In this document: in pieces, positions 7,631-41,430 of the stretch | Position numbering within the stretch: the stretch's first letter is position 1 | How the letters are laid out: the number at the start of each line of letters is the position of its first letter | Origin: Octopus vulgaris | Lineage: Eukaryota | NCBI GenBank assembly: GCA_951406725.2 | Contig: OX597816.1 | Span: forward strand, 78,306,001 to 78,370,000 | Direction of reading: 5' to 3' | Length of the DNA: 64,000 nt | The notes under the pieces: generated by a model | The model's input: the letters and a program-made list of their open reading frames with translations, nothing else | Told to the model about the DNA's origin: nothing | Databases searched by the model: none | Program-made: the position numbers and the translations under genes

Positions 7631-8365
7631 AATATCAGGTATGTGCCATCAGTAATTATTCAGGATAGGCAGTTGTTGACCTTTATGTAGTAAAACACAC
7701 AAAAAAATAAGTGAAGCACAGGCACACGACTGAGTTGAAGGCAGATTTACTTCTACCTTTATAGCATGTAAAGAAAATGGTGTTATAAGAGTGTACTCAG
7801 CATGTGTACTACAGTAATACCAAGCATAGCTTAAATACTGATATTGAAAAGCAGGGGCAAAATATGCCTACCTAATCTACAAACAAATAAAATATTTTGC
7901 ATGTTATGCATAGTAATCATAATTGTATTGAATTAGGCACATATTTTGCCATACAAGTAAAATGTTGCTATCAATCTATTTTATTCAAGGTAGGTACTGC
8001 TTACCTTGCCTACCTAGGTGGCACGTTCTTGATATTCATACACACACACACACAAACAAGGAACTGGAAAAATTGGGTAAATTTTAAATTCCACATTACA
8101 CATGTTTCATTGCATGATAGGAGTTACATGCAGAAAAACATGTATAGGATTTCCTATCTGTGATTCTCCAGATAAATTACTCAGTAATTGATCTGCAAAC
8201 AGAAATCACCAGAAATTTCAAATGCTATGTGCTTTATCTGTAATAAAACATTTATATGCATACATTTGATTACTGCAACATGTAGATATGCTTCATGTAG
8301 ACAGAACTTGGTTTATAACCCCTTCTATACATTATATATTTATATATCACTCACATATGTAATGC

Positions 8366-18369: not shown

Positions 18370-18413
<44 letters not shown>

Positions 18414-18420
<7 letters not shown>

Positions 18421-19180
18421 TAAGAAATGGAGTCAAATGCAGGTGTTATTCAAATCTTTATCACTTCCAATATATGTTTCGAAGAAAACATTCATATTAT
18501 TCCAGAGGGAATAAAATGATGTAAAACAATGCAATCATCTCGCCAGGGAAAAAAGAGAAACAAAGCTCATCAATAAGCCATTTTAACCGAATGTGATTAC
18601 CGTGTATATGATGAAGGGGAATGCTGGCAAATTATTCTTTAAAAAACCATTAATAGATTTAACATCAAAGGCAATTTAGGGAAAGAAAGAAATTAACAGA
18701 AAATAGAGAGTGGAGAGAAATATAGTGTGATAGATGAATGGGAATAAAGCTTAAAAGTGTGAAATGAAATGTAAGAAGACAGTTAAAGGTAAAATTTTAT
18801 AGACTGGTAGAAATTACTTATAGGAACTAAATGTATGTTTTTACCAATATTTGCAGCAATAAGTGCATTCTTTAAAGGTGTTTACAAGAGAATTCTCAGA
18901 GAACAGAATGAGAAATTGTTCTTTGTTACAGCGTGGACAAAAAGATTTGCTTTTATCATATGGGAAGGAATTCCACCGCGATCTAGATCCAAATCAAATT
19001 CTTATCTATAGCTTCATGAATCTGGCAAGGGAGGTTGGATTTGATCTGCTTATCATATGGAATTATCAACCAAACAGTTTTACTAGGACACACCTTGTTA
19101 TTAGGGTAGTTATCTTTGAAAGTCCTAGGCTTATTTTTATTACATATAAAGAGACATAAAAAATGGTTATATCCCTTACA
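18414..19180 (-). mobile_element. Penelope-like element (Naiad-type) 3' portion, left copy of an inverted pair
   Basis: Reverse complement of 19900-20090 plus 20540-21135. Lacks about 450 bp present in the right copy. Confidence 0.88.
18465..18550 (-). ncRNA. Degenerate minimal type I hammerhead ribozyme, inverted copy
   Basis: Minus strand TTCC-CTGGCGA-stem II-CGAAAC ATAT ATT-GGAA. Its mutations differ from those in the right copy. Confidence 0.6.
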
Positions 19181-19899
19181 CTAATTAATAATTAATAATT
19201 TCTTGATTAATATTAATAGTAACAACAACAACAATAATAATAATAATGATAGTAGTAGTAGTAGTAGTATTAGTAGTAGTAGTAGTATATCAAAATGATG
19301 GTATTGATGATGATAGTAATGAAGCTAATGTTGAAAGAGATGGTGATGGTTATGATGATGATGAGGAGGAGGATAATGGTATGGGATTATGATGAAGAAA
19401 ATTATCATGATGACAGCTACTACTGCGTTTGCTATAAATATTGTCGTTGCTGTTTTTGTTGACAATGATGGTGATGATGACAATAGTGATGATGAGAATG
19501 ATGGTGATGATGGTTTGATAGTCTAGATAGCGATGATAGTAAGGGGAAGAACAAAGGTATTGTTTGCCCCAACAATAACAACAACTACAACAACATCACT
19601 AACTAAACAACAGCAGTAACTAAATGAAAAGTGCCAGCAGGAATGATAATATTGTTATTGTAATTGGAAAGATGGAGAAAGATAATGATAACGTTGAGGA
19701 CGACATTGATTATGGTGACTAAGTCATTGAAGAAGGAAGAAATTGATAATGAGAATCATTATCATAGCTGTCATTTACATCAACTGGAACAACAACAATT
19801 GCAACTACCACAACCACAACCACCTTAACGTCAGCCTCCAACCATCACTACCACCACCACAACTACTACCACTATCCATTATGGACACACCACCACCAC

Positions 19900-21240
19900 A
19901 GCATAAAGGAAATAACCGTTCTTTATGTCCCTTTATATGTAATAAAAATAAGTCTAGGACTTTTAAAGGTAATTACTCTAATAACAAGGTGTGTCCTAGT
20001 AAAACTGTTTGGTTGATAACTCCTTATGATAAGCAGATCAAATCCAACCTCCCTTACCAGTTTCATGAAGATATAGATGAGAATTTCACCAAAAATTCAA
20101 GATACCATTCCATTATTGGTTCACACCGAATTAGAATAGGGTTTTCAACTACCAAAAACCTTTAAAAAATCATCTCCTTGCATAATAATAAGTTGTTAAA
20201 TACAAATTCAATTAATGAAAATAATAATATTGATATTATTAGCACTAACCATTCTTTGAACAATAATAACAGCAATATTAATATTTCTGATATAAATTCA
20301 AATCGTATTCATTTCCTTAGCAGTAATTCTAAGGCTAGAAACTCTGTTTATCAATAAAAATTACTTCCAGTTCTGATTCTTTTTTTTACATATGTAATTC
20401 ATCATCTGAGTTGTCAAAAAGAATATCTAACCATTACTCTACATTTAGACATATCAATAAATGCAACAACACTGGGCTTAGTAAATTAATTTGGTCTCTA
20501 AAGGAACATAATAAACAATTTAATTTGGAATAGAATATTCTATCTAGATCCTTCCCATATGATAAAGGTAAATCTTTTTGTCTGCTCTGTAACAAAGAAC
20601 AATTTCTCACCCTGTTCTCTGAGAATTCTTTTGTAAACATGTTTAAAGAATATGTTCATTGTTGCAAACATTGGTAAAAACATACCTTTAGTTCCTATAA
20701 ATAATTTCTGCCAATCTATAAAATTTTACCTTTAACTGTCTTCTTACATTTCATTTCCACTACATATATCTATTTTCACACTTTTAAGCTTTATTCCCAT
20801 TCATCTATCACACTATATTTCTCTCTTAATTTTCTATTAATTTCTTTCTTTCTCCTCCTTCTCTTCCTCTAAATTGCCTTTGACGTTAAATCTATTAAAG
20901 GTTTTTTAAAAAATAATTTGCCAGCGTTCCCCTTCATCATATACACAGTAATCACATTCAGTTAAGATGGCTTATTGATATGTTTTGTTTCTCTTTTTTT
21001 TCCTGACGTGATGATTACATTGTTTTACATCATTTTATTCCCTCCGGAATGATATCAACGTTTTCTTTGAAACTTATGTCGGAAGTATAAAGCTTTGAAT
21101 AACACTTGCATTTGACTCCATTTCTTAATTTATTTATGTCATACAAAAACATTTCACTTAACCCTGGAATTTCTACCTTTATAAGTAGGCTGTAATATCC
21201 TTGGCACTTAAGTGAAGTTTTGCTACTCTGGTAACTGTTT
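19900..21240 (+). mobile_element. Penelope-like element (Naiad-type): linker, GIY-YIG endonuclease remnant and 3' UTR
   Basis: TVWLITPYDKQIKSNL..ENFTKNSRYHSII..IGFSTTKNL linker; NSVYQ..FYICNSS..KRISNHYSTFRH..GLSKLIWSLKE..YDKGKSFCLLCNKEQ..CCKH. The CxxC and CxH motifs in GIY-YIG fit the Naiad clade. Confidence 0.88.
20999..21084 (+). ncRNA. Degenerate minimal type I hammerhead ribozyme in the PLE 3' end
   Basis: TTTC-CTGACG(T)-~60 nt stem II-GAAAC TTAT GTC-GGAA. Core A9 is mutated to T in this copy. Confidence 0.65.
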
Positions 21241-21280
21241 ATTTACTTTTTTAATGTTATTTGTACACATTGAAAAATTC

Positions 21281-21313
<33 letters not shown>

Positions 21314-31211: not shown

Positions 31212-31642
31212 ATAGTATATGCTGAAGAAGAAAATGGAGAGTTTTAACAGATAACATCAATATTGTCAATTTACATTTGGTTACCATTGTTTCCATATCC
31301 AACTCATTCAAATTACAAATTTATAAATTAAAATTGCATTTTGAAAATTGTAAGTTAAATATTTCTTCAAAGCATAAACTTGACACAAAAGGAATTATAT
31401 CTTAATTGATTGAGTTTTCTCATGAGTCTTGAGAAAACTCAATCAATTAAGATGTAACTTCTTTTGTGTCAATTTTTTGCTCTGAAGAAATATGTAACTC
31501 GCAATTTTCAAAATGCAATTTTAATTTGTAATTTGTATGAGTTGGATATGGAAACAATTGTAGGCAAATGAAAATTGACAATATGTTAAGAAATTGCTGT
31601 TATCTGTTAAAACTCTCTATTTTCTTCTTTAACATATACTAT
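31212..31642. repeat. ~430 bp near-spacerless palindrome (fold-back/MITE)
   Basis: Termini ATAGTATATG / CATATACTAT. Centre ATCTTAATTGATTGAGTTTTCTCA-TGAGTCT-TGAGAAAACTCAATCAATTAAGAT. Confidence 0.92.
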
Positions 31643-40759: not shown

Positions 40760-41430
40760 TATGGAATTACCTTAGATTTCATGTCCATAAAGAGCTTGGC
40801 TTTAAGGCGTGTCATCAACTCCCAAAACCTGTTGGCTAAAAGCCTTTCTAGCAAGTGGCCTCTCTAGAATATGGAGGAGGAGGAAAGGATCCCGTTACTT
40901 AATGTCAACAAAGGGGATTGTCTTCTCATGGCTTTTGATTGCTGATATCAACAAAAGGGGTTGTGTCCCTTTGTCTATCGATTGCTGGTGACCCTATTAT
41001 CCCATGGGTTCCAATAGGTTAGCAGGAATTTCCTGAAATGTAAGCATGGTCTGAAGACCTCCATTCTGGAGTTCAGGATGTTCCCTGCGTCAAGGGAGTC
41101 TTTTAAGATCCTCACCTGTTCCACTATGCATAATTTACAGCAATTGGTCCTGCTGATATAGGGGGCACGGATTTTCTATGATTCTCCATGATATTATGTA
41201 TGGAATCCCGTTGTCTATTAGCTGCCATACATGGCTAGCTAATGACATGATGAATCTCCTTTCCTGTATCCTGAAGGAGAATTTGTGGTTGGAGAGGTGT
41301 TGCTTAAATGAGTTCCTGGAACAGCTGATGTATCTCTGTGGTCAGGTGTTGATGGTGGTGTGTCTGTTGGTGTCAGCGTCGCTGCAGCTGCTGTTGCTGG
41401 AATTGACACTGTTGGCAAGGTTGATAGAAC
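40760..41430 (-). mobile_element. Second Naiad-type PLE: GIY-YIG C-terminal fragment
   Basis: Minus strand NSFKQHLSNHKFSFR..SLASHVWQLIDNGIPYIISWRII..PYISRTNCCKLCIVEQVRIL..ILNSRMEVFRPCLH. Confidence 0.8.

What the first reader, a model, noticed from the sequence alone, without database searches (positions are those of the whole stretch)
20999..21084. Two complementary-damaged copies reconstruct an intact minimal hammerhead with an unusually large, possibly branched stem II
Seen: the right copy reads CTGACGT..TGAAACTTATGTC-GGAA and the left copy (minus, 18465-18550) reads TTCC-CTGGCGA..CGAAACATATATT-GGAA. Merging them gives TTCC-CTGACGA-[~60 nt]-CGAAAC ATAT GTC|GGAA, with a full core, a 4 bp stem I and a palindromic stem III (ACATATGT). 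The stem II insert holds two sub-hairpins (GATG..CATC and TTATTCC-CTCC-GGAAT(A/G)A). Known: minimal PLE type I hammerheads with palindromic loop III cleave as dimers and usually have a short stem II. Inference: this may be an unreported structural variant that standard descriptors miss.
Basis: partly seen in the sequence, partly recalled or inferred. Interest (0 to 1): 0.72.

Follow-up and report, generated by a model that had tools for sequence, protein, structure and literature searches.

The report
Long-armed hammerhead in decayed Hydra retrotransposon
The two damaged motifs are the back-to-back ends of one decayed Penelope-type jumping gene whose family carries a complete hammerhead motif, predicted to cut its own RNA in pairs, with an unbranched second arm two to five times longer than in published relatives of its group; these two copies are likely dead.

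Summary
Both motifs are ends of one two-armed insertion of a Hydra-clade Penelope-like retroelement. The majority of 77 family copies has the full core, a 4-bp stem I and the palindromic stem III. Each window copy has a core lesion. Sister families in this genome, some young with intact ORFs, share a 47-59-nt stem II domain. Its basal helix shows double-sided changes in 7 of 13 pairs and is recovered blind by RNAalifold. The arm is one interrupted hairpin. Published Hydra arms are 10-24 nt; 51 of 77 metagenomic relatives show 10-29 nt. A 53-nt arm is already listed for a spike-moss element, and arm length varies from 10 to about 100 nt in this genome. Cleavage is untested. This scan has noted the same long-armed class before on other DNA (14 notes, at least 3 genomes). 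Verdict: a real structural variant of a known pairing, not found in the papers searched, seen here as a fossil.

The parts
19899..21281 (+). Main arm: 5'-truncated Hydra-clade Penelope-like element (end of ORF, 3' pseudo-LTR, tail), ending in a (TATG)n microsatellite
   Evidence: 85% identical over 1379 nt to the copy in L143, which runs in tandem into a second pLTR and an RT start
19899..20704 (+). Broken ORF end: linker and GIY-YIG-type endonuclease with CxxC and CxH motifs, in-frame stops
   Evidence: tblastn to the intact 775-aa sister protein of L145: 49% and 63% identity; translation
20999..21084 (+). Type I hammerhead motif, right copy; A9 and C11.1 changed, palindrome broken; predicted cut site of the intact family after 21080
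21010..21068 (+). Stem II domain, 59 nt: basal helix 21010-21022 with 21056-21068, one-sided internal loop, inner hairpin
21035..21052 (+). Inner hairpin of stem II; its ATTC/GAAT core is conserved in sequence across sister families
   Evidence: 97.6% of cells paired, no double-sided change
21072..21079 (+). Stem III and loop III, an 8-nt palindrome in the family, one change in this copy
21138..21281 (+). Tail between the two preferred 3' ends (T1 near 21137, T2 near 21280); holds the 5' strand of a conserved helix that closes just before the start codon in full-length copies
18411..19182 (-). Inverted arm of the same insertion: starts at the same element position as the main arm, lacks about 460 nt internally, ends at T1 in a (TA)n/(TATC)n run
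18465..18550 (-). Type I hammerhead motif, left copy; A6 and G16.2 changed
19183..19898 (.). Low-complexity triplet-repeat spacer between the two arms, origin not determined

Best explanation
The two motifs are the decayed 3' ends of one back-to-back insertion of a Hydra-clade Penelope-like retrotransposon, and its lineage carries a complete type I hammerhead with a long, unbranched, structurally conserved stem II that likely cut the element's multi-copy RNA as a dimer, probably with help from the element's protein. Shown: element identity, two-armed layout, intact family core, covarying basal helix, two preferred 3' ends. Inferred: a tandem transcript brings two motifs together, the 8-nt palindromes pair in trans to form stem III, and the cut falls after C17. 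The long arm is kept paired because its base must close the catalytic junction, while its length is free to drift. Reverse transcription would start about 57 and about 200 nt past the cut site, on uncut or re-ligated RNA, and write the two arms into a TA-rich microsatellite. The two copies in the window are predicted inactive.
For: Hydra hallmarks in the family and its sisters: DKT, CxxC and CxH, (TA)n flanks. Majority core intact in 77 copies. Basal stem II: 7 of 13 pairs with double-sided changes, 87% of cells paired against 35-48% for slid partners, covariation score 0.303 against 0.176 +/- 0.017, 0 of 500 shuffles; 7 of 12 pairs without families A and B; the same 11 pairs found blind. The long arm sits in young families with 778-908-aa open frames and in a three-unit tandem array. 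These families form one clade, support 1.0. 54 of 60 alignments end at T1 or T2 and none within 10 nt of the cut site; 7 of 9 two-strand loci pair one T1 arm with one T2 arm. Palindrome duplex -6 to -10 kcal/mol. Copies decay at equal rates in core and insert, 5.2% and 5.1% outside CpG. Dimer cleavage and protein-assisted cleavage are reported for other PLE hammerheads (PMC4209133; PMC11167929).
Against: No cleavage was measured. The shuffle control ignores relatedness, and the count of covarying pairs alone was not clearly above it (64 of 500; 25 of 500). The family-A majority has three U-U mismatches in the basal helix; its predicted G10.1-C11.1 pairing probability is 0.07 and the active fold costs 5.1 kcal/mol, so even the dimer is not favoured (+3.3). 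Sister motifs cost 0.7-6.5. Family B has U4 changed to C in many copies with intact ORFs. Family A has no intact protein in the tree; L142 (84% DNA identity to the arm) stands in. In the anole element, ribozyme mutants still inserted in vitro.
Confidence: 0.78

Rival explanations
1. The long arm is a dedicated module: its conserved inner hairpin binds the element's RT/endonuclease or makes a tertiary contact that switches cleavage on.
For: The TATT core of the inner hairpin is invariant in 15 of 15 aligned inner regions while the flanking helix bases swap. Arm length stays at 53-59 nt in 19 of 20 motifs. A PLE hammerhead that needs its protein is known.
Against: One copy has lost one side of the internal loop (L156, 47 nt). 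Related lineages in the same genome have arms of 10, 16, 44, about 70 and about 100 nt with unrelated sequence. No binding data. Conserved sequence without compensatory change can reflect common descent.
Confidence: 0.25
2. The motif was already catalytically crippled in the master element of this family; family A spread without a working ribozyme, or used one only when refolded by protein.
For: 58 of 77 copies carry T at the third stem II position, where the pairing base A is found in all 17 non-A-family rows but one. The predicted fold of the majority buries the GAAA box (83% paired).
Against: All core positions are intact in the majority. The common variants at one stem II pair are all pairing-compatible (A-U 27, G-U 27, G-C 16, A-C 0), although copies are not independent. 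Folding energies ignore tertiary contacts and magnesium.
Confidence: 0.3
3. Stem II is a branched junction made of the GATG/CATC helix and the inner hairpin.
For: Both helices appear in the minimum-energy fold of the family majority.
Against: It excludes the G10.1-C11.1 pair, has no covariation above shuffles (60 of 500), and is absent from the blind consensus fold. In one search the inner helix was out of register for non-A rows, so that call understates the inner hairpin, but not the GATG/CATC helix.
Confidence: 0.04

Closest known systems
Hydra-clade Penelope-like elements and their hammerheads (Craig et al. 2021, PMC8557442; seen: abstract, passages, sections 6 and 11, supplement parts 1, 2 and 52), including Hydra-1_Obim
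   Same: C-terminal endonuclease with CxxC and CxH, DKT motif, (TA)n targets, inverted 5'-truncated arm, tail at one end, type I hammerhead in the 3' repeat
   Different: Listed Hydra arms are 10-24 nt (22 nt in Hydra-1_Obim) against 47-59 nt here. Stem III is a 2-bp stem with an even palindromic loop, not 3-4 bp. The CxCX5C linker is lost in this clade. The tail is about 145 nt, not 30-40.
Minimal and palindromic-helix-III PLE hammerheads (Cervera and De la Pena 2014, PMC4209133; seen: parts 1-2 of 4 of the text, supplement text)
   Same: Type I topology, short helix I, G10.1-C11.1, palindromic helix III predicted to need a dimer
   Different: Their descriptor allows stem II of 3-7 bp and a loop of 3-10 nt; the motif here has 11-13 bp plus an inner hairpin, and no unpaired base between A9 and G10.1.
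PLE-X1_sMoe hammerhead of the spike moss Selaginella (PMC8557442 File S2, marked as deviating from the canonical structure)
   Same: PLE-borne hammerhead with a 9-bp stem II and a 35-nt loop, 53 nt in all
   Different: Unrelated plant clade without endonuclease; a single listing without covariation analysis in what I could read
PAc Poseidon element of the green anole (PMC11167929; seen: passages)
   Same: Hammerhead upstream of two RT start sites that define the genomic tail
   Different: Different clade and short stem II; activity was measured there and needed the protein; nothing was measured here

Membership tests
Type I hammerhead ribozyme | Core boxes CUGANGA and GAAA, and NUH cut triplet | tested here: met
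   Met by the family majority and 29 of 77 copies; not met by either window copy
Type I hammerhead ribozyme | Stem I open-ended and paired around the cut site | tested here: met
   4 pairs, 95% of cells paired, one pair with a double-sided change
Type I hammerhead ribozyme | Stem II closed by G10.1-C11.1 | tested here: met
   G-C in 16 and G-U in 4 of 20
Type I hammerhead ribozyme | Site-specific self-cleavage after H17 | not testable with these tools
   Only assembled contigs were available, which cannot show RNA ends
Type I hammerhead ribozyme | Loop I to loop II tertiary contact of canonical motifs | not tested
   No systematic search; PLE motifs are reported to lack it
Dimer-dependent PLE hammerheads | Short stem III with palindromic sequence | tested here: met
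   8 of 8 self-pairs in 9 of 9 non-window motifs; 6 of 8 in each window copy
Dimer-dependent PLE hammerheads | Short stem II (3-7 bp, loop 3-10 nt, as in the published descriptor) | tested here: not met
   0 of 20 fit
Hydra-clade PLE | DKG changed to DKT in the RT | tested here: met
   SDKT in the family-linked RT of L100 and in sister proteins
Hydra-clade PLE | C-terminal GIY-YIG endonuclease with CxxC and CxH around the conserved E and N, no CCHH | tested here: met
   read by eye against section 11 of PMC8557442; Pfam gave no significant family
Hydra-clade PLE | RWK motif near the N-terminus | tested here: inconclusive
   RWL in this clade; RWK in the short-armed family L297
Hydra-clade PLE | CxCX5C linker | tested here: not met
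   Cysteines absent in L145, L150 and L160; present in L293, L297, L299 and most outside relatives. The clade is therefore filed as a derived branch nested among Hydra-like proteins, not as a typical member.
Hydra-clade PLE | Insertion in (TA)n and tandem or inverted layout with a tail | tested here: met
Hydra-clade PLE | Placement in a tree with the published Hydra proteins | not tested
   The published sequences were read but not used in any computation; the tree used database relatives only

The most novel reading that the evidence does not exclude
A recently active retrotransposon clade has turned hammerhead stem II into a 55-nt regulatory module whose invariant inner hairpin is a handle for the element's own protein, so that self-cleavage is switched on only inside the ribonucleoprotein and after dimer formation.
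Probability: 0.2. Interest if true: 0.72.

Novelty: new variant of a known kind. Interest (0 to 1): 0.42.

Why it matters
Length-limited descriptors cannot see these motifs, so published ribozyme counts for such genomes are likely too low. Young families with intact ORFs and identical motifs exist in the same genome, next to short-armed relatives. That gives natural matched pairs to test the open question of what PLE hammerheads do and whether they need the element's protein. The copy in this window is itself a fossil and adds only an older branch of the series.

Tried and rejected
Rfam scan of the window at E up to 5: no hammerhead family among 130 matches, mostly microsatellite noise. Rfam at gathering score also found nothing in 8 loci, 5 of which hold short-armed motifs, so the miss cannot be blamed on the arm. 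A short-spacer pattern gave 6 matches in the window against 2.9 expected, none at the finding. Single-sequence folds of family-A copies are not unusually stable (z -0.4 to -2.3). RNA evidence: no RNA holder listed on record; four contig sets covered the young L160 unit but cannot show ends, strand or level, and showed no canonical splice joint. A protein search for longer relatives of the endonuclease piece found none. Pfam named neither RT nor endonuclease. A 5'-UTR intron was considered from donor-like and acceptor-like motifs in family B; the same bases form a covarying helix and no acceptor was seen before the start codon in families C, D and G, so it was set aside. The ATG at the start of stem II in family A opens only 13 codons and is absent in sister families. 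A link between the long arm and loss of the cysteine linker was rejected: lineages that keep the linker also have long arms nearby. In the tree, 12 near-duplicate proteins were dropped, and row L245 was a wrong frame and was ignored. Lunse et al. 2017 was not held; it may list long-armed variants that I could not see.

Full report
What is in the window. Each has a change at a core position: A9 in the right copy, A6 in the left. Self-comparison shows that they belong to two inverted arms, 19899-21281 (+) and 19182-18411 (-), 85-91% alike, which start at the same element position and are separated by a 716-nt low-complexity spacer. The left arm lacks about 460 nt internally.

What the element is. 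The + arm encodes the broken end of an ORF that matches an intact 775-aa protein from the same genome at 49% and 63% identity. A 281-nt query gave 1474 first-look candidates in the 2.8-Gb genome G000, of which 40 were scored. The copy in L143 is 85% identical to the arm over 1379 nt and runs in tandem into a second end repeat and an RT start. The proteins carry DKT, CxxC and CxH, the marks given for the Hydra clade of Penelope-like elements in section 11 of PMC8557442. They lack that clade's CxCX5C linker, and Pfam names neither domain. The host is likely an octopus-like cephalopod. This is inferred from recalled repeat motifs, from one close protein labelled Argonauta hians and from earlier AI notes, and was not tested.

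Layout and ends. Of 60 distinct alignments from loci L001-L060, 31 end at T1 (about 57 nt past the cut site), 23 at T2 (about 200 nt past it; the query stopped at 21285) and 6 elsewhere; none ends within 10 nt of the cut site. In 7 of 9 loci with copies on both strands, one arm ends at T1 and the other at T2, as in the window. Most ends abut TA-rich microsatellites. This matches the inverted arm and one-sided tail described for PLEs and the two RT start sites measured for the anole element (PMC11167929). Because both ends lie past the cut site, the template was likely uncut at this motif or had been re-ligated; this is inference.

The family motif. The majority of 77 distinct family-A copies has both core boxes, G10.1-C11.1, a 59-nt stem II domain and the 8-nt palindrome; 29 of 77 copies keep both boxes. 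These copies were chosen by similarity to the window, so the counts are not genome-wide. Outside CpG sites, core and insert differ from the majority at the same rate (5.2% and 5.1%; CpG 28.6%), as expected for decay after insertion. A model built from 11 sister-family motifs alone finds the two window copies as its best hits.

Structure of the arm. An RT query found many sister families, some with identical copies and open frames of 778-908 aa, and one three-unit tandem array. Their motifs have 47-59 nt between the core boxes. In an alignment of 20 motifs, a 13-pair basal helix has double-sided changes in 7 pairs; 87% of all cells pair, against 35-48% when partners are slid, and the covariation score exceeds all 500 shuffles. 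That control ignores relatedness, and the number of covarying pairs alone is reached by 64 of 500 shuffles. Without families A and B, 7 of 12 pairs covary (25 of 500). RNAalifold, given no structure, returns 11 of these pairs and nothing else. An inner 4-bp helix pairs in 97.6% of cells but shows no double-sided change. The arm is therefore one interrupted hairpin.

Predicted activity. Opening the family-A majority into the active fold costs 5.1 kcal/mol, and its GAAA box is predicted 83% paired in a competing hairpin. Sister motifs cost 0.7-6.5; the window copies cost 15.3 and 5.8 and also have core lesions. Adding the palindrome duplex makes the dimer favourable for 6 of 8 sister motifs but not for the family-A majority. 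These are nearest-neighbour estimates without magnesium or tertiary contacts. Family A may have had a weak ribozyme. No RNA data could test cleavage.

How unusual is the arm. File S2 of PMC8557442 lists Hydra arms of 10-24 nt, including 22 nt for Hydra-1_Obim, but also a 53-nt arm in a spike-moss element. Among 77 metagenomic loci with related proteins, my scan found a motif in 51, with arms of 10-29 nt; it allowed 120 nt but slightly favoured short ones. The long-arm model found no full-length match in them. In G000 itself, a typical Hydra family has 10 nt, another lineage 16 nt, and candidates of 44 and about 100 nt lie near related ORFs, linked by proximity only. A second family in the window has about 70 nt. 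In a FastTree tree of 59 proteins the 47-59-nt families form one clade with support 1.0. Arm length is thus labile in this wider lineage, which argues against an essential role for this particular arm, while pairing at its base is kept.

Literature. Six full-text searches found no description of this variant. Seen: PMC4209133 (parts 1-2 of 4, supplement text), PMC8557442 (abstract, passages, sections 6 and 11, supplement parts 1, 2, 52), PMC11167929, PMC6765202 and PMC13725137 (passages), preprint 10.64898/2026.07.22.740005 (part 1 of 5; its supplements are closed). Lunse et al. 2017 was not held, and supplement figures are pictures I could not see; either may bear on novelty. PMC8557442 also notes Naiad elements with core halves 35-50 nt apart. 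This scan has 14 earlier notes on long-armed Hydra hammerheads in at least 3 genomes; they are unchecked and are not counted as support. None matched this family by sequence.

Verdict. A real, structurally conserved variant of a known pairing of ribozyme and retroelement, present here as two dead ends of one old insertion. The branched reading is rejected. Interest 0.42.

Noticed in passing
window 31214-31640: A second fold-back insertion of a different Hydra-like family (about 40% RT identity to L145). The + arm holds a near-intact hammerhead at 31479-31565 with a 62-nt arm (about 70 nt in the majority of 27 copies) and an A-G juxtaposition where G10.1-C11.1 is usual.
   Followed up: partly
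window 8085-8183 (-): A third hammerhead-like motif with a 56-nt arm that holds two nested helices, palindromic loop III and A6 changed to G; family not examined.
   Followed up: no
L117, L137, L143, L152, L154, L160: 110 nt before the start codon; window 21230-21281: A conserved three-way junction just before the AUG. Its 11-13-bp closing helix has different sequences in families A/B and C/D/E/G but stays paired, and the T2 end of insertions maps to its unpaired linker, like the RT start stem-loop of the anole element. Covariation was not counted.
   Followed up: partly
L145, L150, L160 proteins: This clade has lost the CxCX5C linker cysteines but still sits in (TA)n, against the proposed link between that linker and microsatellite targeting.
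   Followed up: partly
L144-L146, L148, L115, L118, L122, L133, L134: Family B copies, several with intact 778-aa frames, share a U4-to-C change in the first core box.
   Followed up: no
L297, L298: A young, typical Hydra family (727 aa, linker intact, tandem copies) with a 10-nt stem II; a natural control for the long-armed families.
   Followed up: partly
L300:about 5019 on the element strand: Candidate hammerhead with a 100-nt stem II near a related RT.
   Followed up: no
window 40999-41338 (-): Weak matches to Hydra-like endonuclease pieces, likely another PLE remnant.
   Followed up: no
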